Position numbers and translations under genes: made by a program
Notes under the pieces: model-generated
What the model was told of the DNA's origin: nothing
The model's database searches: none
What the model saw: the letters and a program-made list of their open reading frames with translations, nothing else
Source: Thermofilum pendens Hrk 5
GTDB lineage: Archaea > Thermoproteota > Thermoprotei > Thermofilales > Thermofilaceae
Length of the DNA stretch: 32,000 bases
NCBI RefSeq assembly: GCF_000015225.1
Contig: NC_008698.1
Coordinates: forward strand, 1,500,001-1,532,000
Direction of reading: 5' to 3'
Shown: one piece after another, positions 8,827-27,062 of the stretch
Position numbering within the stretch: the first letter of the stretch is position 1
Layout: every line of letters begins with the position of its first letter

Positions 8827-10182
8827 CTAGCCTATCTCCACGAATTCCATCCCCACCTTTTTGAGCGCGTAGCTAACCTCGCGCAGGTAGTCCCCGTATA
8901 CTATCAGCCAGTGGAAGCCCCTGAGCTCCCTTAGGAGGCGTCGCCAGTCCCCCTCTATCTCGATCTCGGCTTGGCTCCTGCAGATGGGCAGGAAGGGGGC
9001 TTCTGCAATCTTCCCCCTGAAGCCCACCCAAGTTTTCTCCTCGAAGTCTGGGATGAGCACCGTCACTACCTGCCCCTTCCTGAACTCCACCTTGGGTGCC
9101 GCTCCGTAGTCGGACTCGAAGTGCGTGAGTATCCGGGCCGGCTCCCTACTTCTGCCGTCCATGAGCCTAGGCGCTGTGCAGTGGGCTACAGTCACTATGC
9201 CGTCGTGGGGCAACGTGGGGTCTGCGAGGAACACGGGCTTCCCGGAGGCGTAGTGGAGAAGTATCGCCGCGGGTATAGCGACGAAGTCGCTCTCGCAGAG
9301 CGCGAGGTAACCCTCGTCGTTCAGGAGGCTGAGCGCGAGGCACGCGGTGGTCTTCGCGATAGGCATTATCGTTGTCATGCACTCGTTCACAGTTATTATC
9401 CTGGCCTCGTGCTCCTCGAGGAGTTGCTTAAACACGAGGTACAGGACGAAGGCGTTCACGACGAACTCCTCCCTAGTCTCCAGGCGTACCCCCTCCTCCG
9501 AGAGGTACTCCTTAGCCATCCGCTTAGCCTCCTCCAAGCACCGCTCGTCGCCCATAGCCTTCTTTATCCTCTCGGCAAGCTCGGCGTAGGAGACTTCGAC
9601 TATGTCGAGGTGCCACCTCGCCCTCGCAAGCTCGACAGCCTTCCCGCCTATACCCCACCCCGACGCGCCTCCAACCGCGACAACCCTAGCCCCGAGGGTG
9701 TTCTTCAAGGCGTAGAGCGCCCGGAGCCTCCTCAGAAGCTCCTCGTAGTCGTCTACGACCACGTCGTCGTAGTCCAGCCAAACCTGACCGATGCGGTCGT
9801 TGTACCGCCTTATCAGCCTGGCGTCTATTATCTCGTACCACAGGTAGAGGGGGCCGGACCTATGCCTGAGGAAAACAACTGTCGGCCCGCGGTAGGCAAC
9901 GCCTATCAGGAGCCCCTCGTCCCCGCCGGCGGCGTAGAGCAGGTAAACGTCCGCCTTCTCCAGGCGATCCACGTCCCCGTAGCTCTTCACCATGCCTACT
10001 GGTAGAAACTTGAGGGGGAAGCCGGCTCTCTGCTCGAGGTTCTTTAGCTCGGCCTTGATCCTACGCCTCTCCTCCTCAGCGCTCTCCTCGTCCGCTATCC
10101 CTCCCCAGGCGCGCCAGCTCGTAGCCTCGCGCCTCTCGTACACGCTGTACGCAAGAACAGGCTTCACGGTCAGCTCAACCAA
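8827..10182 (-). CDS. L-fucose/L-arabinose isomerase-like family protein (uncharacterised sugar isomerase)
   Basis: The 451 aa central/C-terminal region resembles the FucI/AraA fold signature (TTACLALSLLNDEGYLALCESDFVAIPAAILLHYASGKPVFLADP). The CDS is clearly real from its long, protein-like composition. The function is tentative. Confidence 0.55.
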   Translation of the reverse strand: MVELTVKPVLAYSVYERREATSWRAWGGIADEESAEEERRRIKAELKNLEQRAGFPLKFLPVGMVKSYGDVDRLEKADVYLLYAAGGDEGLLIGVAYRGPTVVFLRHRSGPLYLWYEIIDARLIRRYNDRIGQVWLDYDDVVVDDYEELLRRLRALYALKNTLGARVVAVGGASGWGIGGKAVELARARWHLDIVEVSYAELAERIKKAMGDERCLEEAKRMAKEYLSEEGVRLETREEFVVNAFVLYLVFKQLLEEHEARIITVNECMTTIMPIAKTTACLALSLLNDEGYLALCESDFVAIPAAILLHYASGKPVFLADPTLPHDGIVTVAHCTAPRLMDGRSREPARILTHFESDYGAAPKVEFRKGQVVTVLIPDFEEKTWVGFRGKIAEAPFLPICRSQAEIEIEGDWRRLLRELRGFHWLIVYGDYLREVSYALKKVGMEFVEIG

Positions 10183-12174: not shown

Positions 12175-12876
12175 CTACTGCTTCCCGCCGGAGCCCCGGA
12201 GGGCTTCGAGCAGCCTTAGCAGTAGACCCGCAAGCCTCTCTGAGTTCACGACCACCGTGTAGGAGTTCGCCTCGACGTCTTCCTTCACGTACACCTCTAC
12301 CCTACCAGGCTCCACGAGCAATGCGGCGGGCTCGCCTCCCCCTAGCTCCACGACATTCACCCTTCTGCGCAGAAGCTCCGCGTCGCGCTCCCCGAACACC
12401 TTCGAGGCGTCCGAGCAGACAACGGTTGCCTCCGCGCTCCTCAGAGCCTCCTGCACCAAGGTCGGGAGAGCCCTCTCGCCCCTCACAAGGAAGACCGGGC
12501 TCCGCGCCTCCGGCGAGTAGAGCTTCCTGAGCTCGCTCGTAGCCTCCGAGACCTTCTCCTCGAGCCTTTTTATCTCGCCGAGCAACTCGCTCCTCCTCCT
12601 CTCGAGGAGGTTGCGCATAGCGGTCTCGGGGTCTAGTGCCTGGAACCTGAGGGGCCTCCCGGGCACCGAGGCTAGGAGCCCCTTGTTCTCGAGGCTTGAG
12701 AGCACGTCGTAAGCCTTCGTGTAGGATATCCCGCTGAGGTCCGCGACTTCGCTTACCGTCGCCACGCCCCTTATTAGGAGCGCGAGGTACGCCTTTATCT
12801 CGTACCGGGAGAAGCCCAGGGAGGCTAGAACCTCTTCCACTCTGCTCATCGCCGCGCGGTCAGCCTCGCCTGGCAT
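12175..12876 (-). CDS. TrmB-like transcriptional regulator (short form)
   Basis: Winged HTH of the TrmB family (LGFSRYEIKAYLALLIRGVATVSEVADLSGISYTKAYDVLSSLENKGLLASVPGRPLRFQAL) followed by a coiled-coil linker. ATG 12876 directly abuts the TAA of the upstream KaiC-like gene. The alternative start is ATG 12849. Confidence 0.75.
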   Translation of the reverse strand: MPGEADRAAMSRVEEVLASLGFSRYEIKAYLALLIRGVATVSEVADLSGISYTKAYDVLSSLENKGLLASVPGRPLRFQALDPETAMRNLLERRRSELLGEIKRLEEKVSEATSELRKLYSPEARSPVFLVRGERALPTLVQEALRSAEATVVCSDASKVFGERDAELLRRRVNVVELGGGEPAALLVEPGRVEVYVKEDVEANSYTVVVNSERLAGLLLRLLEALRGSGGKQ

Positions 12877-13599
12877 TTAGCGCTCCTCACCCTCCACGGG
12901 GGTCGCGGCGCTCATATCGTGCGAAAGCCTGAACGGGGTTAGAGGGTAGGAAGTCTTTATGCAGCGCAGAATCCTGAGGTAGCGGCTGCTCCCCCGCCTC
13001 GAGAGCTCGAAGACGACGTCGGGGAGGCTCTTCAAGAAGCACTCGTAGTGCTTGTTGAGCACCCCCTCGCTGTACACCATTACGTGTATACCGCGGGATC
13101 TGCGAGCCTCTGCGTGCAACCTGCCGATAAAGCCGGGTATCAGCTCCTTGGATGCCGAGAAGAAGAGCGTCGAGAGGTGCGATATCACGAGCCTGTACCT
13201 ATCGCCCGGCTCGAGGAACTCCCGCTTGGCCACCACTATCTCCCTAAGCACCTCGTCGAGGTCGAAGGGGTTCTCGACTAGGTACCTCGCGGAGCTCTCA
13301 ACGCCAACCCTCGGCGAGAAGCAGTCTATGAAGACAAGCCTGCCCTCCTCTATGAAGCGCCGCGCGCTCATCCCGTACTTCTCCATGTTCTCCACGATGT
13401 CCTCCGGGAAGAGGTCGACCGTAACATAGATGCCCTTCTCACCCTCGAGCAGACCCTCGTAGAGTATCCTCTGGGCAAAAGTGTTCTTCTTGCTACCTAT
13501 GGACCCGGCGACGAGAACGGAGGAAGGCCTCGGCAACCCGCCCTCTAGAGCCTCGTCCAGCCCCTTTATACCCGTGCGCGCGCGCTCCATCCCTTCCAC
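12877..13599 (-). CDS. KaiC/RadA-paralog-like single RecA-domain protein with degenerate nucleotide-binding motifs
   Basis: KaiC-like N-terminus (TGIKGLDEALEGGLPRPSSVLVAG...). The P-loop reads GSIGSKKN instead of GxxGxGKT. The Walker B position reads LVISHLS instead of hhhhDS. Confidence 0.7.
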   Translation of the reverse strand: MEGMERARTGIKGLDEALEGGLPRPSSVLVAGSIGSKKNTFAQRILYEGLLEGEKGIYVTVDLFPEDIVENMEKYGMSARRFIEEGRLVFIDCFSPRVGVESSARYLVENPFDLDEVLREIVVAKREFLEPGDRYRLVISHLSTLFFSASKELIPGFIGRLHAEARRSRGIHVMVYSEGVLNKHYECFLKSLPDVVFELSRRGSSRYLRILRCIKTSYPLTPFRLSHDMSAATPVEGEER

Positions 13600-13667: not shown

Positions 13668-15149
13668 TTGACCAATGCTGAAAAAAGAGGTTTCGGGAAG
13701 TACCTCCAGGCAGCCGGGATGCCGCTAGCGATCTTCGCGCTCCTCGCGATCTCCCTGATGCCCACGCCGCCAGGCCTCACCGTGTGGGGGCAGAGGGCCC
13801 TCGCCGTGTTCACCTTCGCCCTCATACTATGGCTTACGTCGCCGATTCCCTTCTGGCTGACCTCGCTACTGGCCATAGCCCTTCTCCCGATAACCGGCGG
13901 CTACTCCGTTACGTCGACCTTCCAGCAGCTCGGGCAGGACGTTATATGGCTCATGGTCTGCGCCTTCATACTCTCGAGCGCGATGGAGAAGACAGGTATA
14001 GGCAAGAGGCTCGCGTACAGGCTCCTCCTAGTCTTCGGCGGGTCCCCGTCCCTAACGCTACTGGGGCTGATACTGATAAACCTCGCCCTAGCCTTCGTAG
14101 TCCCCAGCACCACCGCGAGGGCTAGCATAATGCTCCCGATAGCCCTACTCATAGCCGAGGCCTACAATCTTAAGCCCGGCGAGAGCAACTACGGGAAGAT
14201 ACTCATGATGCAACAGCCCATGGCCAACAACCTGAGTACTTCCATGATACTCACGGCTACCGCGCCGCAGATACTCGCGTGGAGCTTCCTGAAGGGGATG
14301 GCGGGGGTCGAGGTACCGTGGCTCACCTGGCTGGTCGCCCAGATGCCCGTAATACTGGTAATGCTGGTAGTACTGTGGATCGTCGGGCTTAAGCTCTTCC
14401 CGCCCGAGATAGGCTCCACGGCGAGCACGGAGTGGCGCGCGAAGCTCAAGGAGGAGCTCAAGTCCATGGGACCGCTGAGCCGGGAGGAGAAGTACACGCT
14501 CGCCGTATTCCTCCTAGTGCTATTCCTATGGGCTACGGACCAGTGGCACGAGGTAATGTTCGCAGGGCTCAGCATACCCTACGCTCTCGCGGCTGTCATA
14601 GGTGCCTCCCTACTGTTCCTGCCAAAGCTAGGCCCCCTCAAGAAGTGGGGCGACGCGAAGATACCGTGGGACCTGATGATATTCAGCGCCGGCGCGTACG
14701 CAGTTGGGCTCGCGCTCAACGACTCCGGGGGCGGGCAGTGGCTGGTAATGCAGCTTGTCAACGCGCTTGGGCTTCAGAAAGGCGTGGACCTCTTCGTAGC
14801 CTACGCGCTCCTCCTGGCCCTCATGCTCTACAGCCACGTGTTCTTCTCGAGCAAGACGACCAGAACCGCGATATTCATACCGCTCTACATAGCCCTCGCC
14901 AGGGCTCTCGGCCTACCGCCCGTAGCCATAGCGCTACCCGCCGCCTTCGTTATATCCTGGGACCTCACGTTCCCGTACAACTGCAAGCCTAACCTCATCT
15001 ACTTCGGAACCGGGTACTTCACCATGCGCGACATGATAATCTACGGCCTAACGATATGCACTATCGGCTACGTCCTCTACCTCGCCGTCGGCTGGCCCTG
15101 GCTTAACTTCCTGGCTTCGATAGGGATGCTTCCGGGGTGGAAGGTGTGA
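13668..15149 (+). CDS. DASS/SLC13-family anion:cation symporter
   Basis: Multi-pass permease with DASS-type hairpin motifs (VVPSTTARASIMLPI and SSKTTRTAIFIPL). The TTG start at 13668 lies 6 nt after GGTGA (13657-13661). The alternative start is ATG 13719. Confidence 0.85.
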   Translation: MTNAEKRGFGKYLQAAGMPLAIFALLAISLMPTPPGLTVWGQRALAVFTFALILWLTSPIPFWLTSLLAIALLPITGGYSVTSTFQQLGQDVIWLMVCAFILSSAMEKTGIGKRLAYRLLLVFGGSPSLTLLGLILINLALAFVVPSTTARASIMLPIALLIAEAYNLKPGESNYGKILMMQQPMANNLSTSMILTATAPQILAWSFLKGMAGVEVPWLTWLVAQMPVILVMLVVLWIVGLKLFPPEIGSTASTEWRAKLKEELKSMGPLSREEKYTLAVFLLVLFLWATDQWHEVMFAGLSIPYALAAVIGASLLFLPKLGPLKKWGDAKIPWDLMIFSAGAYAVGLALNDSGGGQWLVMQLVNALGLQKGVDLFVAYALLLALMLYSHVFFSSKTTRTAIFIPLYIALARALGLPPVAIALPAAFVISWDLTFPYNCKPNLIYFGTGYFTMRDMIIYGLTICTIGYVLYLAVGWPWLNFLASIGMLPGWKV

Positions 15150-15163
15150 GGAGGGTGGTAGGC

Positions 15164-16006
15164 GTGAAGGGCTCCGTAATCCTCGCCACGCTACTCGTAG
15201 CGACCCTGCTTGTAGCCGCGGCTGCGCGCGCCGAGCCCTCAAAGATCAAGGGCGTACTCTACGACGTGAAGATACTGGGCTGGGAGTACAGGGAGGACCT
15301 TGAAAGCGGGGTGTTCACGCTTAACCTAACGGTCTCGTTCAAGATGGCGAACTGCTCGGACTCCGCGCTCGTCGTCCCGCTGGGGTTGTCCTTCGTTAGC
15401 GCCAACCTCACGAAGGCGTCCGTAGTGCTGGACGGCGAGGAGCTGGCGGGCAAGGCGAAGCTCGTAACGAAGCCCCTCTCCAGAGTCGAGATCGCGCTGA
15501 AAAAGCCCGTCTCCGGCCCCAAGTGGGCAACGGTCACCGTTTCCATCGTGTGCCAGGTGAAGAGCGGGGCTAAGATCCAGTCCGGCTACGCCAAGGACTA
15601 CACCCCCGTGAGCGACAAGGTGCTCAACATACCCGTGACGAACTACTTCACGTCCGTTAGCTGGGAGAAGGACGGCGACCTGCCGGGCGTGAGGATACGC
15701 GTGTGCCCGCCCAGCGGATGGAACGCGGTGTACGCGGTTTCCTCGATAACATCGAAGGTCGCAACCCTGGATATCCGCAGGGTGGACTCCTGCTTCGAGT
15801 TCTGGAACCTCGACGAGAAAACCGTGACCCCCAAGTCCCTGAGCCCCGGCTCCTCGTTCTCGGCTGAAGTCGCAGTCCTACCTGCGCCTTCGCCGAGCCA
15901 GCCGCACGTCGCGCTCGTGGCGCTGGCCCTCGTAGCCGCGGCGTGCTTCTTCGCCTGGTACTACAGGGACGTATACAGGTACGTCGAGCTGAAAGTGGGA
16001 GGCTAA
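15164..16006 (+). CDS. Exported, C-terminally membrane-anchored protein of unknown function
   Basis: Signal-peptide-like N-terminus (MKGSVILATLLVATLLVAAAARAEP), a beta-rich body, a P/S linker (PAPSPSQP) and a C-terminal TM segment (HVALVALALVAAACFFAWYY). GTG 15164 lies 6 nt after GGAGGGTG. The track start 15137 overlaps the DASS gene. Confidence 0.6.
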   Translation: MKGSVILATLLVATLLVAAAARAEPSKIKGVLYDVKILGWEYREDLESGVFTLNLTVSFKMANCSDSALVVPLGLSFVSANLTKASVVLDGEELAGKAKLVTKPLSRVEIALKKPVSGPKWATVTVSIVCQVKSGAKIQSGYAKDYTPVSDKVLNIPVTNYFTSVSWEKDGDLPGVRIRVCPPSGWNAVYAVSSITSKVATLDIRRVDSCFEFWNLDEKTVTPKSLSPGSSFSAEVAVLPAPSPSQPHVALVALALVAAACFFAWYYRDVYRYVELKVGG

Positions 16007-18744: not shown

Positions 18745-19170
18745 TTAGGAGCCTCCGGTAGGCTCAGCTAAGCAGGATAACCCTCTCGGGCCGTCCAGCA
18801 CAAGCGTTAGGGAGTTCAACAGCTCTCTACCCACGAGCCTCTTCCCTAGACCGTAAACCGGTGTCTCTACGAGCACCTCGCGCTTCTCGCCGCCTATAAC
18901 CGCCACTGCGCGCGCCGCCCTCATAGGCAAGGGCCCCGCCAGGGTTCTATGGGTCCTCCACGCCTCCCGCGGTAACTCGCCTACCGCGAAGAACTCGTAG
19001 GTCTCCCTGTCTAGAAGCAAGGAGCCCTCGAAGCCCGTGTCGACGGGCAACTCTAGCTCGAGCTCTTCGCCCAGGAGGTTGATCAGCTTAAGCCTGACCT
19101 GCGGGTATCCATAGACCCTGCCGCGCCCGTACTCCCAGCAACCTACAGGAACGTAGACCCTCCCCACCAT
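18745..19170 (-). CDS. Retropepsin-like (clan AA) aspartic protease, archaeal AF_0612-like family
   Basis: Single DTG active-site motif in context (LELPVDTGFEGSLLLD) and a C-terminal LVGRELLNSLTLVLDG block typical of single-domain retropepsin-like proteins. The ATG overlaps the upstream gene by 28 nt. Confidence 0.65.
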   Translation of the reverse strand: MVGRVYVPVGCWEYGRGRVYGYPQVRLKLINLLGEELELELPVDTGFEGSLLLDRETYEFFAVGELPREAWRTHRTLAGPLPMRAARAVAVIGGEKREVLVETPVYGLGKRLVGRELLNSLTLVLDGPRGLSCLAEPTGGS

Positions 19171-19511
19171 TCCAGCTCGCCTCCCTTGTCCTCGCCGACC
19201 TTCACTACCACCGCGTGCTTAGGCCTGATGCCTTTAAGGGCGGCTATCACTTCGTCCAGCGTGGCGTAGACGCCTACCAGGCGGGCGTGCGCGAAGACCG
19301 CGTACATGCCGCGGTGCTCCTTGAGGAGCCTCTCCTTTTCCCTAGCGTAGGCCTCGTTGTTAGCGTCGGCCTCCGTTAGGAGGAGCCTGGAGGAGAGCCA
19401 GAGGTCCATTGCTTCCTCGATTGCCTGGGAGAGGGTTAGCCCCCTCCTTATAGCTTCAGCCTTGAACTCTCTGAGCTTCCTCTCATCCACCTTCTTTACA
19501 ACCAGGGTCAT
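19143..19511 (-). CDS. Ribbon-helix-helix DNA-binding domain fused to a DUF5678-like C-terminal domain
   Basis: The N-terminus MTLVVKKVDERKLREFKAEAIRRGLTLSQAIEEAMDLWL fits a strand-helix-helix (Arc/MetJ/antitoxin-like) fold. The C-terminus (HRGMYAVFAHARLVGVYATLDEVIAALKG...AVVVKVG) resembles DUF5678. ATG 19511 is preferred. The track's GTG 19529 adds 6 residues. Confidence 0.55.
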   Translation of the reverse strand: MTLVVKKVDERKLREFKAEAIRRGLTLSQAIEEAMDLWLSSRLLLTEADANNEAYAREKERLLKEHRGMYAVFAHARLVGVYATLDEVIAALKGIRPKHAVVVKVGEDKGGELEWWGGSTFL

Positions 19512-19643
19512 CGAGTTAACCTTGTTCACCCAGGTAATGAGCTTAACGCGTAGCTCCCGCTTAGCCGCGCCGCGGGAGACAGCGAAGCGCGCAGTACAAG
19601 CGAATCCTTACGTACTCATTATGTTAGATTTTCGAACCAAACG

Positions 19644-20392: not shown

Positions 20393-20399
20393 TTAATAT
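20393..20399 (+). promoter_or_regulatory. TATA-like box (TTAATAT) of the nurA-herA-mre11-rad50 operon
   Basis: Its centre lies 27 nt upstream of GTG 20423, consistent with a leaderless transcript. Confidence 0.5.
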
Positions 20400-20422: not shown

Positions 20423-21724
20423 GTGCCTAGGTTCGCCGACTTGTTCGTTAGGGAGGTTCGGAGAAAGCGCTCGGAGCTCGAGAGGATTCTGGGAAGCGAG
20501 GGAGGGTTAAGGGAGCGCTACGGGGAGCTGGTAAGGGAGGCGTGGATCCGGGACCTTGAGCCTAGGGGTGCGCGGGGGCCGGCTTACGCCGTGGACAGTA
20601 GTAGCGATGACATCGAAGTGCAGGGCGGCGGCGTCGTCCTGGTTACGCGGTCGTTGGCGCTAAGCGCTGGCGGGGAGGAGATACGCGAGCTACGCTTGGA
20701 CGCCTTCTACCCGAGGAACGTGCGGGACTACGACGACTTTAAGCGGCTCGTAAGGGAGCACGTCGAGCACGTCGTCGCCCTGCGGGCAGTGGAGGAGGGG
20801 GCGCGGCTTGTGCTGATAGATGGGTCGCTGTACGGGAGGATGATCCACGTCTTAAGGGAGCTGGAGGTCGAGGGGAGGGAGGACTTCATGTTCGAGTACG
20901 TCGAGCTCTACTCCGAGCTTTTCTCCAAGGCGCGGAGCCGCGGCGCGCTCGTGGTTGGCGTAAGCAAGGATTCCAGGTCTACCGTCCTGAAGGAGGAGTT
21001 GCTCTACCTGAGGCTCAAGTCGGTCTTGAAGGGGCTTGGCGAGCCGCTCGCAGGCGCCGTGCTCGGCTACTGGAGGCTCCTCAAGAGGAGGCCCAGGGAG
21101 GCCCTCGAGAACGTTAGGAAGCTGGTAAGAGAAGGGTTGAGCCCGGAGGTCTACGAGCTCTTCGAGGAGGCGACGAGCTCCGTGCCAGACTCCAAGGTGA
21201 TACTCGCCTGTGACCCAGGTAGGGGCTTCTCCCGCCCTTTGAGGCTTAGCCTCGAAAAGGTGTCTACGGGCGTGACAGACATCCTGTTGACGGACGGGGC
21301 CCGCGGGGCCGCGTTGCTCAGGGACGTCTTCGAGAAAACTGCGGAGCGCCTCGGCGAGGAGTTCGACGAGAGGGCTTCGCAGGTTCTTGAGTGCATGAAG
21401 AAGTACCCGCCGGTGGTCACCAGCTACGCCGTCTTTAGCCGCGGCGACGACCCTCTCCGCGTCGACTTAGCGGGCGGGAGCGGCTACGAGACCGCAGGCG
21501 ACTCGCGCTTCCTCGCCGAGACTCCGGGGGAGTTGCTGGAGGTACTGGGCTTCCTCGCGTTGCTCTACGCGGGTAGGAGGAGGTACAACGCCCTGCTACT
21601 CGAGGCAGACAGGAGGGTGAAGGCGACGGCCGAGACAATGGAGCTCTACCACAGGCTCGCGATGCAGGAGCTTGGGCTCGCCATCATACACTCGAGGGGT
21701 GATAGGCGTGTATTCTTCCCTTAG
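20423..21724 (+). CDS. nurA: NurA 5'-3' nuclease
   Basis: NurA catalytic blocks are present: AYAVDSSS, LVLIDGSLYGR, VVGVSKDSRS and LLLEADRRVK. The GTG start is predicted to be leaderless, 24-30 nt after TTAATAT. Confidence 0.85.
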   Translation: MPRFADLFVREVRRKRSELERILGSEGGLRERYGELVREAWIRDLEPRGARGPAYAVDSSSDDIEVQGGGVVLVTRSLALSAGGEEIRELRLDAFYPRNVRDYDDFKRLVREHVEHVVALRAVEEGARLVLIDGSLYGRMIHVLRELEVEGREDFMFEYVELYSELFSKARSRGALVVGVSKDSRSTVLKEELLYLRLKSVLKGLGEPLAGAVLGYWRLLKRRPREALENVRKLVREGLSPEVYELFEEATSSVPDSKVILACDPGRGFSRPLRLSLEKVSTGVTDILLTDGARGAALLRDVFEKTAERLGEEFDERASQVLECMKKYPPVVTSYAVFSRGDDPLRVDLAGGSGYETAGDSRFLAETPGELLEVLGFLALLYAGRRRYNALLLEADRRVKATAETMELYHRLAMQELGLAIIHSRGDRRVFFP

Positions 21725-23303
21725 GCAGGTCGGCAGGATAGTCGAGGAGGCTACTCCGGAGAGCTTCATCTTCGTCACGACGAAGCAGGACCACCCGCCG
21801 AAGTACGAGTACGTGCTGGTTAAGTCGAGGGAGGTGGTCGCCGGCGAGGAGAGGGAGGTGGACGTCCTCTGCCAGGTGACCGGCGTGGTTTCCAGGAGCG
21901 ACGCGTACAGCAGTAGGCTAGACCTGGAGAGCCTAGAGCGGATACACGAGGCTGGGATAGACGACGCCAACCTTCTCTGCGCGGCGCGGACCCTCGGCTA
22001 CCTCGCCGAGGAGGACGGGAGGAAGGTGGTCCTGATGCCCAGGAGGGCTTTCTTCCCGGGAAACCCGGTCTACCTGGCCCCGGACGACTTCGTCAGGGAG
22101 TTTTTCTCGTACCCCGGGGAGGAAGGTATACGCATAGGTAGCCTCGTCTCCCGCAGGAACGTCGACGTCTACCTCTCGGTGAACGGGTTCAGGAGGCACG
22201 TCGCCGTTATAGCCCAGACCGGCGCGGGCAAATCGTACACCGTCGGCGTCATACTGGAGGAGTTGCTGAGGCTGGGAGCCACGGCGGTAGTCATAGACCC
22301 GCACGCGGACTACGTGTTCCTGAGCAGGGACAGGGACATGAGGCGCCACGAGTACTCGGACAGGGTCCTCGTCTTCAGGAACCCGAACAGCACTGGGCGC
22401 TACGACCCGAGCCAGATGGACAACGTGCACGAGCTGACGGTGAAGTTCTCCGATCTCTCGGCGGAGGACGTGGCGAGGATAGCCGGGATTCCGGAGAAGT
22501 GGACGAACGTAAGGAAGGCTATCCGCGACGCCCTCGACAAGCTCAGGGGGAGGGACTACACGATTGACGACCTGCTCGGCGAGCTGGAGAAGATGTCGCG
22601 GGGAGGCGGCAAGGAGGCTGCCTACGCGTCGAGCGCGTACAACCACCTCGTGAAGCTGAGGAAGTTCAGCGTGTTCGGCAGGTACACCACGTCCGTCAAG
22701 GACGAGATCCTGAAGCCGGGGCACGTGAGCGTGCTGGATCTGTCCGGGCTTAACGACGCGAGCCAGGACTACATAGTGAGCACCGTGCTAGAGGAGATAT
22801 ACAGGCTGAGGTACTCGGGGGAGTTCAGGTACCCCGTCTTCGTGGTGGTAGAGGAGGCTCATAGGTTCGTCCCATCCAAGGCCTCGAAGAGGTCCACCAT
22901 GTCCTCCGAGATCATAAACACGATAGCGGCGGAGGGCAGGAAGTTCGGCGTGTTCCTGATCCTTGTGACCCAGAGGCCGAGCAAGATAGACGCGGACGCC
23001 CTGAGCCAGTGCAACAGCCAGATAATACTGAGGATCACTAACCCGAGCGACCAGAGGGCTGTCGCCGAGGCTAGCGAGAGGCTGGGGGAGGACCTCATGA
23101 GGGACCTACCTGGGCTCAACGTCGGCGAGGCCATAATAGTTGGGGAGCTGACCCGGGTACCCGTCGTGGTGAAGGTGAGGCGCAGGTTTACGCGGGAGGG
23201 GGGCGCCGACATAGACCTCGTCGCAGAGCTCCGGAGAGCCCGCGAGGAGCTCAGCCTCGCGTCAAGGACATATAGGGGCGAGGACCTACTATCCGAGGTG
23301 TAG
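21708..23303 (+). CDS. herA: HerA hexameric DNA translocase/helicase (FtsK-HerA superfamily)
   Basis: Walker A is AQTGAGKSYT and Walker B is VFVVVEEAHRFVP. A downstream arginine-finger region (LILVTQRPSKID) and an N-terminal HAS-barrel-like region are also present. GTG 21708 lies 5 nt after GGGGTGA and overlaps the nurA end by 17 nt. The track start 21672 is further upstream. Confidence 0.9.
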   Translation: MYSSLRQVGRIVEEATPESFIFVTTKQDHPPKYEYVLVKSREVVAGEEREVDVLCQVTGVVSRSDAYSSRLDLESLERIHEAGIDDANLLCAARTLGYLAEEDGRKVVLMPRRAFFPGNPVYLAPDDFVREFFSYPGEEGIRIGSLVSRRNVDVYLSVNGFRRHVAVIAQTGAGKSYTVGVILEELLRLGATAVVIDPHADYVFLSRDRDMRRHEYSDRVLVFRNPNSTGRYDPSQMDNVHELTVKFSDLSAEDVARIAGIPEKWTNVRKAIRDALDKLRGRDYTIDDLLGELEKMSRGGGKEAAYASSAYNHLVKLRKFSVFGRYTTSVKDEILKPGHVSVLDLSGLNDASQDYIVSTVLEEIYRLRYSGEFRYPVFVVVEEAHRFVPSKASKRSTMSSEIINTIAAEGRKFGVFLILVTQRPSKIDADALSQCNSQIILRITNPSDQRAVAEASERLGEDLMRDLPGLNVGEAIIVGELTRVPVVVKVRRRFTREGGADIDLVAELRRAREELSLASRTYRGEDLLSEV

Positions 23304-23370: not shown

Positions 23371-24546
23371 GTGGAGGTTCTGCGCATAGTCCATACAGCC
23401 GACAACCACCTCGACCCCAAGTTCACCTTCCTCGGGCCCAAGGTGCGGGATAGGAGGGAGGACTTCCTCAACGCCTTCAGGAGGGTTGTAGACTTCGCCG
23501 TCGAGGCGAAGCCGCACCTCTTCCTCGTCTCGGGGGACCTCTTCGACTCCGTTAACCCGAGAAACCCCGTCAGGGTCCAGGTCATAAGGGCGTTCCGGAG
23601 GCTTTACTCGGAGGGGGTAAGGGTCTACGTGATAGCGGGGAACCACGACATGCCCAGGAGCCTGGAGGAGGGGCTCTCGCCGCTCAAGGAGGTGGAGGCG
23701 TCGGGCTACGCGAGGTTCTTCGAGAAGACCTCGGAGTTCGAGGTCGACCACTTCGAGGTGAACGGGTTCGACGTCGCGGTCGCCGGGATATCCTACAACC
23801 CGGAGGTCGGGCTGGACGAGCACCCGCTGAGGAAGTACAACGCGAGGGTACCCCGGGAAGGCGACATAGAGGTAGTCCTAATGCACTACAACTTCGCTGG
23901 GGTAGAAGTGCCGGGCGCCTGGAGGGCCCCGAGGATAACCCGGGAGGACATACCGGACAACTGCGTCTACGCCGCGCTAGGGCACGTGCACTCCCGGGTA
24001 ACGATACCCCTCGGCAACGGCGGTGTGGCGGCGTACCCCGGTAGCACGGAGAGGAGGAGCTTCATCGAGGAAGGGGACGGGGCGAAGGGCTTCCTCTACG
24101 TGAAGGTCCACGGCGACGGGCGCGTCGAGACAGAGTTCAAGGAGGTGCCCACGAGGCCTATCAAAACCGTCAGGGTCCAGGTGCCGCCCTCGGCGGAGGA
24201 CCCCGTGGGGTACGTGTTGTCGAGCCTCCCACCGCCGGACCCGAGGCTCCTCCTAAGGGTGCTCGTGGAGGGCTCGATACCCCTCGCCAGGCTCACGAGG
24301 TACAGCAGGGCCGAGCTCCTGAAGAACGCCGAGAAGAGGTTCTTCCACGTGGTTGTGGAGGACTCCGAGCTGAGGTGCGCCTACGCCGAGAAACCTTCCG
24401 TAGCGGTTGAGTCCAAGAGCCCCATAGAGGCCTTCAGGGAGGAGGTGGAGGGGAGGCTTAGAGAGGCCCCGGAGGAAGACAGGATTATCCTGCTGAAAGC
24501 CTTGGAGCGGGGCGTCAAAGCCCTGGAGGAGAGCGGGGCATGGTGA
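23371..24546 (+). CDS. mre11: Mre11 nuclease
   Basis: All phosphoesterase motifs are present: HTADNHLD, VSGDLFD, GNHD, LMHYN and LGHVH. The C-terminal helices are consistent with a Rad50-binding domain. GTG start. Confidence 0.93.
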   Translation: MEVLRIVHTADNHLDPKFTFLGPKVRDRREDFLNAFRRVVDFAVEAKPHLFLVSGDLFDSVNPRNPVRVQVIRAFRRLYSEGVRVYVIAGNHDMPRSLEEGLSPLKEVEASGYARFFEKTSEFEVDHFEVNGFDVAVAGISYNPEVGLDEHPLRKYNARVPREGDIEVVLMHYNFAGVEVPGAWRAPRITREDIPDNCVYAALGHVHSRVTIPLGNGGVAAYPGSTERRSFIEEGDGAKGFLYVKVHGDGRVETEFKEVPTRPIKTVRVQVPPSAEDPVGYVLSSLPPPDPRLLLRVLVEGSIPLARLTRYSRAELLKNAEKRFFHVVVEDSELRCAYAEKPSVAVESKSPIEAFREEVEGRLREAPEEDRIILLKALERGVKALEESGAW

Positions 24547-27062
24547 CCCTCGTAAGCCTCAAGGCGCAGAACTTCAGGAGGCTTAACTTCCAGGAGCCGC
24601 TAGTGTTCCCGAAGGGCTTCGTCGTTATCAGGGGCAGGAACGAGGCCGGCAAGTCGACGATACTCGAAGCCGTACTCTTCGGGCTTTTCGGCGACTACAG
24701 GATAATCCAGGAGCTACGCGGAGCGCGGGAGGCCGGGCTGGACTCCGTGGTGAACCATAGGTCTGGTAGGGCGAGGGTGGAGGTCGTATTCGAGGTCGAG
24801 GGTAGGAGGTACAGAGTCGAGAGAGTAGTCGAGAGGGGGAGGGAGGGCGGGAGGCAGGTCGAGGCAAGGCTCGTAGAGATAACTCAGGGCGGAGAAAGGC
24901 TGATCGCGACCTCTCCGTCTAGGGTTAACGAGGAGGTCTCCAAGCTTGTACGCGTGAATTGGCGCGAAATGCTGGCTACGAACGTCATAGCGCAGAAGGA
25001 CCTCGAGCACTTGTTGCGAATGGGGAAGAACGAGAGGGAGAAGGTCATAAACATGATGATGGGCTTCGAGAGCTACAACAAGGCGATAGAGAAGCTAGAG
25101 GAGGAGCGTAGAGCCATGCAACAAGAGCTCGAGAAAAAGGTGCTGGAGAAAAGCTCCCTCGAAGATAAACTGAGAAACCTGGAGGAGCTCAAAGTCAAAG
25201 TCGAGGAGTACAGAAGGGAGCTGGAGGAAGTTGAGAAGGAGCTACCCGCCCTGAGGAGCGAGGAGGAGAGGTCCAGGAAGGTCCGGGAGTACCTCGACGG
25301 CTTGCTCAGAGTCCTGAGGGAGAGGGAGAAGACATCGAGGAGCATCGAGGAGGTGGAGAGGAGAATCCGGGAGCTGGAAGAGGAGAGGAGGAGCCTTGAG
25401 GAGAAGGCGGTGAAGCTTAAAGGAGAGCTAGAGGCCCAGAGGAGGCGCCTGGGCGAGCTGGAGGAGAGGGGAAGGGCCGTGCGGGAGGCCTTCAGGAAAG
25501 CCGAGGAGGAGAGGAGGAGGGCCATAGAGTTCTCCGGAAAAGCCCTCGAGCTGCTCGACAAGTACCAGTCACTCCTCGACGAGAAGAGGAGGACCCTGGA
25601 GAGAATAGCAGAGCTCGACAAGAGGCTCGAAGAGCGGCCCAAGCTCCTCGGCGAGTCTGCCAGGCTAGCGGAGGAAGCTAGGTCCGTGGAGTCCAGGATA
25701 GCAGGGGAAAGCCTCCCGGCTTGGAGCAAGGTGGCGTCCGCCGCCCTCCTTGTGGCTTCGGCAGTCCTCCTCCTCGTCAACCCGGCTCTCCTGGCTCTAA
25801 GCATTGCGGGCGCACTCCTAGCAGTACTCTCGCTGGCCGCCGGAGCCTACAGGAAAAGCGTGACGGTCTCGCGGCTTAGGCTGGAGAGGGAGAGGCTCGA
25901 GCGGGAAAGGGCCCTCGTGGAGGAGAGGCTCAAGTCTCTCGAAAGGGACGTGGCGGACAGGGAGAGCCTCTCCAAGAGGCTAGAGGAGATCGACGCCAGG
26001 CTACTTCGAGCAGAGGAGGAGCTCAAAGGGGTTCTCGGGGAGGAGTTCTCAAAGCTACCTCTCCAGGAAGTGAGGGAAAGGGTTTCGAGGGAGAGAGCCC
26101 GCCGGGAGGAGGAATACGAGAGGGCGAGGGCGGAGAAGGAGGCCCTGGAAAAGGAAGCTGCCTCCGTGGGGGAGAGGGTTTCCCAGTTGGAAAAACAGCT
26201 GGAGGAAGTCGAGAGGAGCGTCGAGGAGAGGGTTGAGAGGCTGGGCGAGCTTGCGAAGAGGAGGGAGGAGCTACTGGACGCTTTATCCAGGCTAGTGGTC
26301 CCGGAGCCGCCGTTCGAGATAGAGGGGCTCGTGTGGCCCGTGGACGAGAGAGACATCGAGGGCGTAGAGGTTGTGTACAACACCTACGATAGGCTTTACC
26401 AGCAGGTTTCCAGGAGGCTGGCCGAAGCCGAGGAGAGGAGGAGGGTTCTAACGGGCGAGCTGAGAGACGCGGAGAAGAAGCTGGAGGAGCTACCCGCGGT
26501 AAGGGATAGGCTGGCGAAGCTGGAGTCCGAGGTTAGGGAGCTCGAGGTAGAGGTTAACGCGAGGAGGGAGGCCGTAAAGCTCCTCAGGGAAGTCTCCGCG
26601 AAGAGGCGCGCCGCCTTCGCCCCCAGCGTCGAGCAGAACATGAACTGGATCGTGTCGTACGTGACCAACGGGAGGTACAAGGCCGTGAAGATCGACCCTG
26701 AGAGGTATGACGTGTCCGTGTACGACGCGGAGGCTGGGAGGTGGATGCAGAGGGATATCTACAGCGGGGGAACCAACGACCAGTTCCTCTTGGCGATGAG
26801 AATTGCCTTCACGCTCTCGCTACTACCCAGCGCTAAGGGCACGTACCCCAGGTTCCTCTTCCTCGACGAGCCGCTGGGCTCCTCGGACGCGGAGAGGAGG
26901 GGCAGGATCGTGGAGCTACTTGCACGGGAGCTCACGAGGTTCTTCGACCAGGTCTTCCTCATAACGCACGTAGACATAGAGGAGCCGCCCGGCGCCACGG
27001 TGGTGGAGATAGAGGACGGAAAGCCCGCGCGGATATACACGCCTGGAGCAGAGGAAGGATAG
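24540..27062 (+). CDS. rad50: Rad50-like SMC-family ATPase, hook-less, with a central hydrophobic hairpin
   Basis: Walker A is GRNEAGKST and the Q-loop region is NVIAQKDLE. The protein has very long E/R/L-rich coiled coils. The C-terminal head carries the signature YSGGTNDQFLLAMRIAF, Walker B/D-loop FLFLDEPLGSSD and H-loop LITHVD. The ATG overlaps the mre11 stop (ATGGTGA). Confidence 0.85.
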   Translation: MVTLVSLKAQNFRRLNFQEPLVFPKGFVVIRGRNEAGKSTILEAVLFGLFGDYRIIQELRGAREAGLDSVVNHRSGRARVEVVFEVEGRRYRVERVVERGREGGRQVEARLVEITQGGERLIATSPSRVNEEVSKLVRVNWREMLATNVIAQKDLEHLLRMGKNEREKVINMMMGFESYNKAIEKLEEERRAMQQELEKKVLEKSSLEDKLRNLEELKVKVEEYRRELEEVEKELPALRSEEERSRKVREYLDGLLRVLREREKTSRSIEEVERRIRELEEERRSLEEKAVKLKGELEAQRRRLGELEERGRAVREAFRKAEEERRRAIEFSGKALELLDKYQSLLDEKRRTLERIAELDKRLEERPKLLGESARLAEEARSVESRIAGESLPAWSKVASAALLVASAVLLLVNPALLALSIAGALLAVLSLAAGAYRKSVTVSRLRLERERLERERALVEERLKSLERDVADRESLSKRLEEIDARLLRAEEELKGVLGEEFSKLPLQEVRERVSRERARREEEYERARAEKEALEKEAASVGERVSQLEKQLEEVERSVEERVERLGELAKRREELLDALSRLVVPEPPFEIEGLVWPVDERDIEGVEVVYNTYDRLYQQVSRRLAEAEERRRVLTGELRDAEKKLEELPAVRDRLAKLESEVRELEVEVNARREAVKLLREVSAKRRAAFAPSVEQNMNWIVSYVTNGRYKAVKIDPERYDVSVYDAEAGRWMQRDIYSGGTNDQFLLAMRIAFTLSLLPSAKGTYPRFLFLDEPLGSSDAERRGRIVELLARELTRFFDQVFLITHVDIEEPPGATVVEIEDGKPARIYTPGAEEG
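25731..25847 (+). other. Predicted transmembrane or hydrophobic helical hairpin at the Rad50 coiled-coil apex (aa 398-436)
   Basis: Direct translation gives W-SK-VASAALLVASAVLLLV-NP-ALLALSIAGALLAVLSLAAGA-YRK. These are two uncharged hydrophobic helices of 16-21 residues joined by an Asn-Pro turn and flanked by aromatic and basic residues. The turn at residues 414-415 lies close to the midpoint (residue 420) of the 840 aa protein. Confidence 0.7.

What the first reader, a model, noticed from the sequence alone, without database searches (positions are those of the whole stretch)
24540..27062. Rad50 has no zinc hook; a predicted transmembrane helical hairpin sits at the coiled-coil apex instead
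**Seen in sequence.**
- The 840 aa protein has canonical Rad50 head motifs: GRNEAGKST, SGGTNDQ, FLFLDEPLGSSD and LITHVD.
- It is encoded in an operon with a canonical Mre11.
- It contains no cysteine at all, so the conserved CxxC hook is absent.
- Close to the midpoint, residues 398-436 (nt 25731-25847) read VASAALLVASAVLLLV-NP-ALLALSIAGALLAVLSLAAGA.
- This stretch is flanked by W395 and SK on the N-terminal side and by YRK on the C-terminal side. It forms two uncharged helices joined by an Asn-Pro turn and is rich in small-xxx-small packing patterns.
- It is embedded between arms that are otherwise extremely charged (E/R/K).

**Established knowledge.** In Rad50 from phage to human, the coiled-coil apex carries a CxxC motif. 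Two such motifs coordinate Zn to join Rad50 molecules. The apex is essential for tethering and for complex function.

**Inference.** Two alternatives are possible:
- The Mre11-Rad50-HerA-NurA machine is anchored in the cytoplasmic membrane through the Rad50 apex. That would be compatible with DNA-end processing coupled to DNA import/export, envelope-linked segregation or anti-invader surveillance.
- The hydrophobic hairpin is a Zn-independent apex dimerisation device.

I am not aware of either arrangement being described, and both would be mechanistically new.
Basis: partly seen in the sequence, partly recalled or inferred. Interest (0 to 1): 0.88.

Follow-up and report, generated by a model that had tools for sequence, protein, structure and literature searches.

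The report
Hookless Rad50 with membrane-hairpin apex
The Rad50 DNA-break-repair ATPase of Thermofilum pendens has no zinc hook and instead carries a conserved, membrane-type hydrophobic helical hairpin at the tip of its coiled coil, a design shared by a large and barely noticed clade of archaeal and bacterial Rad50-like proteins, which suggests that their break-processing machine is tethered to the cell membrane.

Summary
ORF 24540-27062 (+) is the Rad50 of a NurA-HerA-Mre11-Rad50 operon of Thermofilum pendens. It has all the ABC-ATPase head motifs, no cysteine, and a 40-residue uncharged block (aa 398-437) at the coiled-coil midpoint.

The block is not chance and not an artefact:
- No shuffle of the protein gives an uncharged run this long.
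- Every close and distant relative recovered carries an equivalent block and no CxxC. This holds for 59 proteins from the first search, 10 related genomic loci, and 133 of 136 full-length cluster representatives.

The block has the features of an N-in/C-in membrane hairpin:
- two ~18-22 residue apolar helices;
- a conserved Pro turn;
- a P-x-W interface motif;
- net-positive flanks on both sides;
- conserved hydrophobicity but not sequence;
- small residues at heptad spacing.

Head-domain trees put these proteins in one clade (89/100 bootstraps), next to hook-type Rad50. Member names from sequence sources include Thermoproteota, Asgard, DPANN, Chloroflexi and Acidobacteria. The genes usually sit in the canonical operon.

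The bacterial YhaN/SbcE family has the same apex design but different heads. A 2009 paper noted its hydrophobic, CxxC-less centre without calling it membrane-spanning.

Membrane insertion, dimerisation and the absence of a second Rad50 in T. pendens remain untested.

The parts
20393..20399 (+). TTAATAT box about 24 nt upstream of the NurA start. It is a candidate TATA box for a leaderless operon transcript.
   Evidence: Read directly from the sequence. The function is inferred, not tested.
20423..21724 (+). nurA (433 aa)
   Evidence: Pfam NurA PF09376, E 2e-14.
21708..23303 (+). herA. The mechanical ORF starts at TTG 21672. GTG 21708, which overlaps the nurA stop, is the likelier start.
   Evidence: Pfam DUF87/HerA central domain E 3e-39, plus HAS-barrel and HerA_C. 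Junction sequence.
23371..24546 (+). mre11 (391 aa)
   Evidence: Pfam Metallophos. phmmer against PDB finds M. jannaschii and P. furiosus Mre11 at E about 1e-23.
24540..27062 (+). rad50, hookless type (840 aa). Its start overlaps the mre11 stop (ATGGTGA).
   Evidence: PDB Rad50 heads match at E about 1e-17. Foldseek top hit is C. thermophilum Rad50 7zr1, E 1e-20.
24633..24659 (+). Walker A / P-loop, GRNEAGKST (aa 32-40)
   Evidence: Sequence. G32, N34, E35, G37, K38 and S39 are invariant in 34 homologues.
25068..25703 (+). Ascending coiled-coil arm (aa 177-388, about 31 nm if fully helical)
   Evidence: AF2 helices 177-363 and 366-388. The length estimate is my own calculation (212 aa x 0.148 nm).
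25713..25730 (+). Interface motif LPAWSK (aa 392-397): a helix break, then a Trp and a Lys at the predicted membrane boundary.
   Evidence: AF2 break at 389-393. Across 34 homologues P393 is 71%, W395 65% and K/R391 68%.
25731..25778 (+). Hydrophobic helix 1 of the apex hairpin (aa 398-413; the AF2 helix is 394-413)
   Evidence: KD and GES profiles. 0% charged residues in the aligned columns. AF2 pLDDT about 80.
25779..25784 (+). Asn-Pro turn (aa 414-415)
   Evidence: AF2 break at N414. Pro is present in 68% of homologues at this column.
25785..25847 (+). Hydrophobic helix 2 of the apex hairpin (aa 416-436). It runs straight into the descending arm. Residues 416-419 (ALLA) are a T. pendens-specific insertion.
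   Evidence: AF2 helix 415-499. Column 428 is 100% G/A/S, and columns 421 and 435 are 76% and 71%.
25848..25880 (+). Basic C-terminal flank, YRKSVTVSRLR (aa 437-447)
   Evidence: K/R is 100% at column 439 and 77% at column 441. Family mean net charge is +2.1 per 10 aa, against a background of -0.16.
25848..26663 (+). Descending coiled-coil arm (aa 437-708)
   Evidence: AF2 helices 415-499, 508-583, 606-648 and 651-708.
26289..26354 (+). Conserved non-helical, Pro-rich break in the descending arm (aa 584-605)
   Evidence: AF2 loop. An equivalent loop appears in the P0036 model. P588 and P591 are nearly invariant.
26763..26783 (+). ABC signature motif, SGGTNDQ (aa 742-748)
   Evidence: Sequence. 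S742, G743, G744, D747 and Q748 are invariant.
26853..26888 (+). Walker B and D-loop, FLFLDEPLGSSD (aa 772-783)
   Evidence: Sequence. The columns are invariant.
26958..26975 (+). H-loop, LITHVD (aa 807-812)
   Evidence: Sequence. H810 is invariant.

Best explanation
This is the operon-encoded Rad50 of Thermofilum pendens. It belongs to a monophyletic 'hookless' Rad50 clade in which a hydrophobic helix-turn-helix hairpin replaces the Cys-x-x-Cys zinc hook at the coiled-coil apex.

**Proposed mechanism**
- Shown by sequence and models: the two ~18-22 residue apolar helices continue the two strands of the antiparallel coiled coil.
- Inferred: the hairpin inserts into the cytoplasmic membrane with both ends on the cytoplasmic side. 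The apex is then fixed in the membrane, and the ATPase heads with the Mre11 dimer hang about 30 nm into the cytoplasm. There they bind DNA ends and hand them to HerA-NurA for resection.
- More speculative: the hairpins of the two Rad50 chains of one complex pack side by side in the membrane, with conserved small residues at heptad spacing. That would supply the constitutive apex dimerisation normally given by Zn-hook pairing. Lateral association in the two-dimensional membrane would then replace hook-mediated tethering between complexes.

Whether the hairpin spans the membrane fully or is a re-entrant (monotopic) hairpin is open.
For: **Identity as Rad50**
- The head motifs are present. PDB Rad50 heads match at E about 1e-17, and the Foldseek top hit is a Rad50.
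- The best NCBIfam models are archaeal Rad50 models, and their matches skip aa about 388-445.
- Mre11 is translationally coupled upstream, within a NurA-HerA-Mre11-Rad50 operon.

**Membrane-type character of the hairpin**
- KD19 is 2.43 and GES exceeds 1.0 only at the hairpin. A biological-scale (Hessa, values recalled from memory) 19-aa sum is -1.6 for helix 2 and +0.3 for helix 1, against at least +6.7 elsewhere.
- The uncharged run is 40 aa, against at most 32 in 20,000 shuffles.
- Across 59 homologues the median block is 41 aa with 0-1 charged residues. Both flanks are net positive, +1.6 and +2.1 per 10 aa, against a background of -0.16 with SD 1.5.
- Sequence varies freely, but hydrophobicity, the P-x-W motif, the turn Pro and a K/R at column 439 (100%) are kept.
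- No amphipathic or polar face exists: 0% charged residues in every core column.

**Geometry**
- Two AF2 models (T. pendens, pLDDT 84; P0036, pLDDT 84) place helix-turn-helix at the apex. Helix 2 is continuous with the descending arm.

**Conservation and clade**
- All hits P0001-57, P0059 and P0069 have the block and no CxxC, whereas the hook-type hits have CxxC and no block.
- All 10 Rad50-bearing loci from named genomes have it.
- 133 of 136 full-length cluster representatives have it.
- In a head-only NJ tree the clade is separated in 89/100 bootstraps.

**Housekeeping role**
- The same operon occurs in Thermofilaceae, a Thermoproteota MAG, Bathyarchaeota, and lineages labelled Aenigmatarchaeota or Promethearchaeota by near-identical proteins.
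- Hook-type Rad50 fills the same operon slot in another Bathyarchaeota genome.

**Plausibility of replacing the hook**
- The hook acts as a constitutive dimerisation module and can be swapped for a MukB hinge in vivo (PMC6969161).
Against: - No experiment or dedicated topology predictor (TMHMM, DeepTMHMM, Phobius) could be run. AF2 monomer models cannot tell a lipid from a protein environment.
- In most homologues each helix is only about 18 residues and the turn 2-3 residues. That is short for a full span, especially in tetraether membranes, so a re-entrant hairpin is possible.
- T. pendens helix 1 is Ala/Ser-rich and only marginally hydrophobic on the biological scale (+0.3).
- The hairpin pLDDT in the second model is only 58-72.
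- Dimerisation within the membrane is pure inference.
- I could not show that T. pendens lacks a second, hook-bearing Rad50 (one search is inconclusive).
- The partner proteins have no membrane segments.
- Nothing in the neighbourhood links the operon to envelope functions.
Confidence: 0.7

Rival explanations
1. Soluble, Zn-independent apex. The hydrophobic hairpins of two or more Rad50 chains bury each other in a water-soluble helical bundle or micelle-like oligomer. They act purely as a dimerisation or oligomerisation device without touching the membrane.
For: - The apex must dimerise, and any stable dimeriser can replace the hook (PMC6969161).
- Conserved small residues at heptad spacing point to tight helix-helix packing.
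- T. pendens helix 1 is Ala-rich.
- The SbcE central domain was simply 'insoluble' when overproduced.
Against: - A four-helix bundle made from two hairpins would leave about half of each helix exposed to solvent. Yet no core column carries a single charged residue in 34 homologues, and only 0-1 charged residues occur in 59 proteins, in a protein that is otherwise 40% charged.
- Sequence drifts freely while hydrophobicity is kept.
- The positive flanks, the interface Trp and the helix lengths fit a lipid environment.
Confidence: 0.1
2. Re-entrant (monotopic) anchor. The hairpin dips into the cytoplasmic leaflet or half of the tetraether monolayer and returns without exposing its turn outside, like proline-knot or caveolin-type hairpins. 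It anchors the apex but does not span the membrane.
For: - The helices are only about 18 residues in most homologues, with a 2-3 residue Pro-containing turn and no polar loop.
- From my own knowledge, Thermofilum membranes are tetraether-based and relatively thick.
Against: - T. pendens itself has 19-22 residue helices.
- Bacterial relatives and YhaN proteins have longer helices with 5-10 residue loops, some charged, which look like true loops.
- No test here separates the two topologies.
Confidence: 0.25
3. Specialised paralogue. T. pendens has a canonical hook-bearing Rad50 elsewhere. This membrane-anchored copy serves a side function such as processing imported or exported DNA or surveillance of invaders.
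For: - Both hook-type and hairpin-type Rad50 occur in Bathyarchaeia and Nitrososphaerales MAGs.
- B. subtilis keeps SbcC alongside SbcE, and SbcE gathers at the poles of competent cells.
- The Ted DNA-import loci of some Thermoproteales carry rad50 and herA-like genes (PMC9905601).
Against: - The gene sits in the canonical NurA-HerA-Mre11-Rad50 operon, here and in at least eight other lineages.
- No Thermofilum or Infirmifilum hook-type protein appeared among the hits of either search.
- Nothing related to DNA transfer or defence lies in the 32-kb window.
- There are no plasmid-borne relatives.
- Hook and hairpin types fill the same operon slot in different genomes.
Confidence: 0.15
4. The protein is a horizontally acquired member of the bacterial YhaN/SbcE family rather than a Rad50.
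For: - The apex design is the same, and 114 of 119 YhaN-family proteins have it.
- There is a weak PF13514 hit.
Against: - The PF13514 score is 21.9 bits against a cut-off of 22, and it covers only the P-loop.
- Head-only profile comparison scores 375 to hook-type Rad50 but 259 to YhaN.
- YhaN separates as an outgroup in 91/100 bootstraps.
- The HerA-NurA operon context is archaeal.
Confidence: 0.04
5. Assembly or frameshift artefact, or a chance low-complexity stretch.
For: None found.
Against: - The reading frame is uninterrupted.
- An identical protein is in NCBI for T. pendens.
- The feature is conserved in over 130 clusters at 50% identity.
- The shuffle test excludes chance.
Confidence: 0.01

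Closest known systems
Canonical archaeal Rad50 (Pyrococcus furiosus, Methanocaldococcus jannaschii, Sulfolobus) of the NurA-HerA-Mre11-Rad50 operon
   Same: - ABC-ATPase head motifs and head fold.
- A long antiparallel coiled coil.
- A translationally coupled Mre11 and the same four-gene operon.
- Head profiles are the nearest non-hairpin relatives (hhalign score 375).
   Different: - No CxxC and no PF04423 hook, with zero cysteines.
- A ~40-aa apolar helix-turn-helix occupies the apex.
- Scores fall far below the NCBIfam Rad50 equivalog cut-offs (131 against 700 bits).
- The family forms its own clade (89/100 bootstraps).
Bacillus subtilis SbcE (YhaN) with nuclease SbcF (YhaO); YhaN family, PF13514 / COG4717
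   Same: - An SbcC/Rad50-like ATPase that lacks CxxC.
- A central hydrophobic domain with a conserved proline, insoluble when overproduced, partnered with an Mre11/SbcD-type nuclease (PMC2811018).
- 114 of 119 family members examined have mid-protein membrane-type segments. The 963-964 aa members have two such helices.
   Different: - The head family differs: hhalign score 259, outgroup in 91/100 bootstraps, and PF13514 not reached.
- It is bacterial, has no HerA-NurA, and coexists with SbcC.
- The 2009 paper does not propose membrane insertion. I found no later paper naming both SbcE and SbcF.
SMC / MukB hinge as an alternative apex dimerisation module
   Same: It shows that the Rad50 apex needs only a constitutive dimeriser. 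Fission-yeast Rad50 works with a MukB hinge in place of the hook (PMC6969161).
   Different: The hinge is a soluble globular domain of 150-200 aa. Here the candidate module is a lipid-embedded helical hairpin.
Short-loop two-helix membrane hairpins (for example the ATP synthase c subunit, or proline-knot / re-entrant hairpin anchors). Comparison from my own knowledge, not tested.
   Same: - Two ~18-22 residue apolar helices.
- A very short Pro/Gly-containing turn.
- Small residues at the helix-helix interface.
- Both termini on the same side.
   Different: Those are small proteins or terminal anchors. Here the hairpin lies in the middle of an 840-aa cytoplasmic coiled-coil ATPase. No sequence relationship is implied.

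Membership tests
Rad50/SbcC (SMC-like ABC ATPase partnered with Mre11/SbcD) | Split ABC-ATPase head with Walker A, signature motif, Walker B/D-loop and H-loop | tested here: met
   GRNEAGKST (32-40), SGGTNDQ (742-748), FLFLDEPLGSSD (772-783) and LITHVD (807-812) are present. The residues are invariant in 34 homologues. PDB Rad50 heads match at E about 1e-17.
Rad50/SbcC (SMC-like ABC ATPase partnered with Mre11/SbcD) | Long intramolecular antiparallel coiled coil between the head halves | tested here: met
   AF2 models give helices 177-388 and 415-708 (second model). The Foldseek top hit is full-length C. thermophilum Rad50.
Rad50/SbcC (SMC-like ABC ATPase partnered with Mre11/SbcD) | Adjacent Mre11/SbcD phosphoesterase gene (in thermophilic archaea, also herA and nurA) | tested here: met
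   The operon is NurA-HerA-Mre11-Rad50 with an overlapping stop/start.
Rad50/SbcC (SMC-like ABC ATPase partnered with Mre11/SbcD) | Cys-x-x-Cys zinc hook at the coiled-coil apex (PF04423) | tested here: not met
   The protein has zero cysteines and no PF04423 hit. By contrast, 117 of 117 hits to a hook-type query have a midpoint CxxC.
Rad50/SbcC (SMC-like ABC ATPase partnered with Mre11/SbcD) | Score above the NCBIfam archaeal Rad50 equivalog cut-offs | tested here: not met
   The best model, NF003034, scores 131 bits against a cut-off of 700. Matches are split around the hairpin.
YhaN/SbcE family (PF13514, COG4717) | PF13514 (AAA_27) at or above the gathering score | tested here: not met
   21.9 bits against a cut-off of 22, covering aa 22-51 only.
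YhaN/SbcE family (PF13514, COG4717) | Head domains closer to YhaN than to Rad50 | tested here: not met
   Head-only hhalign scores are 259 to YhaN and 375 to hook-type Rad50. YhaN is separated in 91/100 bootstraps.
YhaN/SbcE family (PF13514, COG4717) | Central hydrophobic, proline-containing domain without CxxC | tested here: met
   for this protein. for YhaN.
Integral-membrane helical hairpin (N-in/C-in) | Two apolar helices of membrane-spanning length above standard hydropathy thresholds | tested here: met
   KD19 is 2.43 (threshold 1.6). GES trapezoid reaches up to 2.0 (threshold 1.0). AF2 helices are 394-413 and 415-436.
Integral-membrane helical hairpin (N-in/C-in) | No charged residues in the core and no amphipathic face, conserved across homologues | tested here: met
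   0% charged in all core columns of 34 sequences. 0-1 charged residues per block in 59 proteins.
Integral-membrane helical hairpin (N-in/C-in) | Positive-inside rule on the cytoplasmic flanks | tested here: met
   Net charge is +1.6 (N flank) and +2.1 (C flank) per 10 aa, against -0.16 with SD 1.5 in the arms. Column 439 is 100% K/R.
Integral-membrane helical hairpin (N-in/C-in) | Call by a trained topology predictor (TMHMM, DeepTMHMM, Phobius, TOPCONS) | not testable with these tools
   None is installed. Only hydropathy scales that I re-implemented were used.
Integral-membrane helical hairpin (N-in/C-in) | Physical association with the membrane; full span versus re-entrant topology | not testable with these tools
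   This needs fractionation, carbonate extraction or accessibility mapping.

The most novel reading that the evidence does not exclude
The hairpin-type protein is the only Rad50 of Thermofilaceae, and of many Bathyarchaeia, Asgard and DPANN lineages. In these organisms the whole Mre11-Rad50-HerA-NurA break-resection machine would work while tethered to the cytoplasmic membrane. Paired transmembrane hairpins would form a lipid-embedded four-helix bundle that replaces the zinc hook. Hook-mediated bridging between complexes in three dimensions would then be dispensable for Rad50 function. It could be replaced by membrane anchoring and two-dimensional association. The same solution would have been reached independently in the bacterial YhaN/SbcE family.
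Probability: 0.4. Interest if true: 0.85.

Novelty: new variant of a known kind. Interest (0 to 1): 0.75.

Why it matters
The zinc hook is treated as a universal and essential part of Rad50, 'from phage to human'. What it is for is still debated: holding the two arms of one complex together, or bridging DNA ends between complexes.

- **A natural experiment.** A large clade keeps the heads, the arms, Mre11 and the HerA-NurA partners but swaps the hook for a membrane-type hairpin. If these proteins are membrane-anchored, bridging between complexes by hooks cannot be a universal requirement, and break processing in these cells would be spatially tied to the envelope.
- **Cultured and eukaryote-related members.** The clade includes cultured hyperthermophiles (Thermofilum, Infirmifilum). 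Near-identical cluster members carry Asgard labels, which makes it relevant to the ancestry of the eukaryotic MRN complex.
- **A tractable bacterial system.** The link to B. subtilis SbcE/YhaN gives a genetically tractable system in which membrane anchoring of an SbcCD-like complex could be tested at once. It would also reinterpret the 2009 observations of an insoluble central domain and polar foci in competent cells.
- **Annotation.** These proteins are currently labelled only 'AAA family ATPase' or 'SMC domain protein' and fall below the Rad50 model cut-offs.

Tried and rejected
- **Second, hook-bearing Rad50 in T. pendens.** No tool gives access to the whole genome. The search with P0001 found no other Thermofilum protein. 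The search with a hook-type Rad50 (P0062) listed only the best 120 of 431 hits, none from Thermofilaceae. This is suggestive, not conclusive. The genomic context is the repair operon, so I rejected this reading.\n- **Mobile-element origin.** There are no meaningful plasmid homologues.\n- **Small-xxx-small / GxxxG packing.** This pattern is not conserved. The conserved pattern is i, i+7.\n- **Literature.** Ten full-text searches found no description of a membrane or hydrophobic apex in archaeal Rad50 and no follow-up on SbcE topology. The S. acidocaldarius fractionation paper concerns DNA-bound pellets, not membranes.\n- **Failed run.** A first bootstrap script timed out and was replaced by a vectorised version.\n- **Dimer modelling.** This was not possible, because the structure tool takes one natural chain only.

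Full report
**1.

The window comes from Thermofilum pendens: the protein is 100% identical to an NCBI entry for that species, named 'AAA family ATPase' / 'SMC domain protein'. ORF 24540-27062 (+) encodes 840 aa.

- The protein has no cysteine. Ten neighbouring proteins contain 0.66% Cys, so the chance of no Cys in 840 residues is about 0.004.
- Residues 398-436 (nt 25731-25847) read VASAALLVASAVLLLV-NP-ALLALSIAGALLAVLSLAAGA. They are preceded by LPAWSK and followed by YRK.
- The protein is 39.6% charged. This 40-residue uncharged run compares with 13 for the next longest, and with a maximum of 32 in 20,000 shuffles.
- Hydropathy exceeds the standard thresholds only here: KD19 is 2.43, and GES trapezoid values above 1.0 occur only for window centres 401-430.

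**2. What the gene is**

Pfam, PDB sequence and fold comparisons identify a Rad50/SbcC-type head and a long coiled coil. Directly upstream lie NurA, HerA and an Mre11 whose stop codon overlaps the Rad50 start. A TTAATAT box lies about 24 nt before nurA. The rest of the window encodes ordinary transport and metabolic genes.

NCBIfam's archaeal Rad50 models are the best hits but score far below their cut-offs (131 against 700 bits). Their matches stop at about aa 388 and resume at about aa 446, so they skip the hairpin.

**3. The hairpin defines a clade**

- In the first homologue search, P0001-57, P0059 and P0069 all have a 35-54 residue uncharged block at 0.41-0.51 of their length and no CxxC. 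With one exception that shows neither feature, the remaining hits have a midpoint CxxC and no such block.
- Ten Rad50-bearing loci recovered from named genomes all carry the block and no CxxC. They come from Thermofilaceae, Infirmifilum, several Bathyarchaeota, a Nitrososphaerales MAG and an unclassified bacterial MAG.
- A profile of 34 members searched against 1.84 billion cluster representatives gave 2,696 clusters at E<=1e-30. Of the best 150, 136 are full length, 133 of these have the block and none has a midpoint CxxC.
- Names attached to cluster members add Thermofilum sp., Thermoprotei, 'Promethearchaeota' and 'Hermodarchaeota' (Asgard), 'Aenigmatarchaeota', Chloroflexi and Blastocatellia.
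- As a control, 117 of 117 hits to a hook-type archaeal Rad50 have the CxxC and no block.

**4. Genomic context is the canonical one**

The hairpin-type gene follows Mre11 in every archaeal locus examined. It sits in a (NurA-)HerA-Mre11-Rad50 operon in several lineages:

- a Thermoproteota MAG;
- two unnamed lineages;
- a lineage whose near-identical cluster member is labelled Aenigmatarchaeota;
- a Bathyarchaeota MAG;
- a lineage with Promethearchaeota-labelled cluster members;
- another unnamed archaeal lineage;
- one 'bacterium' MAG.

Bacterial-type members have an adjacent Metallophos nuclease gene, or in one case none. In another Bathyarchaeota genome a hook-type Rad50 lies downstream of NurA-HerA in the same slot. 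The two apex types therefore look like alternatives for one role. Co-occurrence in a single genome was not tested.

**5. Anatomy of the hairpin across the family**

The consensus pattern is: [K/R]-x-P-x-W-(S/A)-K, then about 18 apolar residues, x-Pro, about 18 apolar residues, then K/R-x-K/R.

- No core column holds a charged residue in 34 sequences.
- Only hydrophobicity, the two prolines, the Trp and the flanking basic residues are conserved.
- Both flanks are net positive: +1.6 and +2.1 per 10 residues, against -0.16 with SD 1.5 in the arms.
- Strictly small residues recur at i, i+7: columns 400/407 in helix 1 and 421/428/435 in helix 2. This fits tight antiparallel packing that continues the heptad register.
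- T. pendens has a private 4-residue insertion (ALLA, aa 416-419) that lengthens helix 2.

Two AlphaFold2 models (T. pendens and the 708-aa relative P0036, mean pLDDT 84 each) agree on the geometry. They place a short break, helix 1, a turn, and then helix 2 running straight into the descending arm.

**6. Interpretation**

Several features together are what is expected of an N-in/C-in membrane hairpin:

- a completely apolar surface;
- membrane-spanning helix lengths;
- an aromatic and basic interface;
- positive-inside flanks on both sides;
- free sequence drift.

They are hard to reconcile with a soluble bundle, where half of each helix would face water. I therefore favour membrane anchoring of the Rad50 apex (confidence about 0.7). 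The heads and Mre11 would lie about 30 nm away in the cytoplasm (212-residue arm, my own calculation).

Apex dimerisation within the membrane is plausible, because the hook is functionally just a constitutive dimeriser that can be replaced by a MukB hinge (PMC6969161). It is nevertheless inferred, not shown. The short helices and the 2-3 residue turn leave a re-entrant topology possible. None of the partner proteins has a membrane segment.

**7. Relationship to known families**

The bacterial YhaN/SbcE family (PF13514/COG4717) has the same design.

- The relatives of P0069 are named 'uncharacterized protein YhaN'. 114 of 119 have mid-protein membrane-type segments, and the 963-964 aa members have two helices with short loops.
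- The only experimental paper (PMC2811018) reports that SbcE lacks CxxC. It describes a unique central domain with a conserved proline and a hydrophobic first half, insoluble when overproduced, and SbcE accumulation at the poles of competent cells. It does not propose membrane insertion. I found no later paper naming both SbcE and SbcF.

The T. pendens protein is nevertheless not a YhaN.

- PF13514 is not reached.
- Head-only profile comparison scores 375 to hook-type Rad50, 259 to YhaN and 453 to the long bacterial-type hairpin proteins.
- In a head-only NJ tree the hairpin-type Rad50 clade is separated in 89/100 bootstraps and YhaN in 91/100. Hook-type monophyly is found in only 8/100.

The hairpin apex therefore arose at least once within or beside Rad50. 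It arose either a second time in YhaN or earlier, in a common ancestor.

**8. Novelty and limits**

Ten full-text searches found no description of a hydrophobic or membrane apex in archaeal Rad50. A 2022 survey of archaeal SMC-related proteins discusses only zinc hooks. I rate the finding a new variant of a known kind.

- It is a real, conserved and widespread replacement of a supposedly universal module.
- It has a partial and under-interpreted bacterial precedent.

Not established:

- actual membrane insertion and topology;
- dimerisation;
- whether T. pendens has a second, hook-bearing Rad50 (searches give weak evidence against);
- any functional link to DNA transfer. The Ted loci of other Thermoproteales carry rad50 (PMC9905601), which I record only as a lead.

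Noticed in passing
window 26289-26354 (Rad50 aa 584-605): A conserved non-helical, proline-rich break in the descending coiled-coil arm (sequence around VVPEPPFEIEGLVWPVDERDIEGVE). P588 and P591 are nearly invariant in 34 homologues, and both AF2 models show a loop here. It could be an elbow or joint, or a partner-binding site.
   Followed up: partly
window 24540-24546 and 21708-21724: Overlapping stop and start codons suggest translational coupling along the operon. The overlaps are mre11/rad50 (ATGGTGA) and nurA/herA (GTG 21708 upstream of the TAG at 21722-21724).
   Followed up: partly
window 20393-20399: A TTAATAT box about 24 nt upstream of the nurA GTG start. It is a likely TATA box of a leaderless operon transcript.
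   Followed up: no
window 25785-25796 (Rad50 aa 416-419): A four-residue insertion (ALLA) in hairpin helix 2 that only T. pendens has among the 34 aligned homologues. It makes helix 2 22 residues long, against about 18 in the others.
   Followed up: partly
window 7586-8545 (+), 8827-10182 (-), 15137-16006 (+), 18745-19170 (-), 19143-19529 (-): Five sizeable ORFs have no Pfam match at E<=1e-4.
   Followed up: no
window 12175-13599 (-): A KaiC-like ATPase gene lies directly next to a TrmB-family regulator gene on the minus strand.
   Followed up: no
L021:14103-17228: This contig's hairpin Rad50 has near-identical cluster members labelled Promethearchaeota. It carries a second NurA-HerA pair about 4 kb downstream of the HerA-Mre11-Rad50(hairpin) operon.
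   Followed up: no
L017:6979-8304: In a Nitrososphaerales MAG the hairpin-type Rad50 is followed directly by an archaeal Nre (Nre_N/Nre_C) gene. Nre is a family of suspected DNA-repair proteins.
   Followed up: no
L023:9651-15654: In a contig whose Rad50 carries a Chloroflexi label, the hairpin-type gene is convergent with a Metallophos nuclease, a 1,315-aa SF1-type helicase and a HerA-like ATPase. This is a different partner set from the archaeal operon.
   Followed up: no
literature lead (PMC9905601): The Ted DNA-import loci of Pyrobaculum and Vulcanisaeta carry rad50 and herA-like genes. I did not check whether those Rad50 copies are hairpin-type.
   Followed up: no
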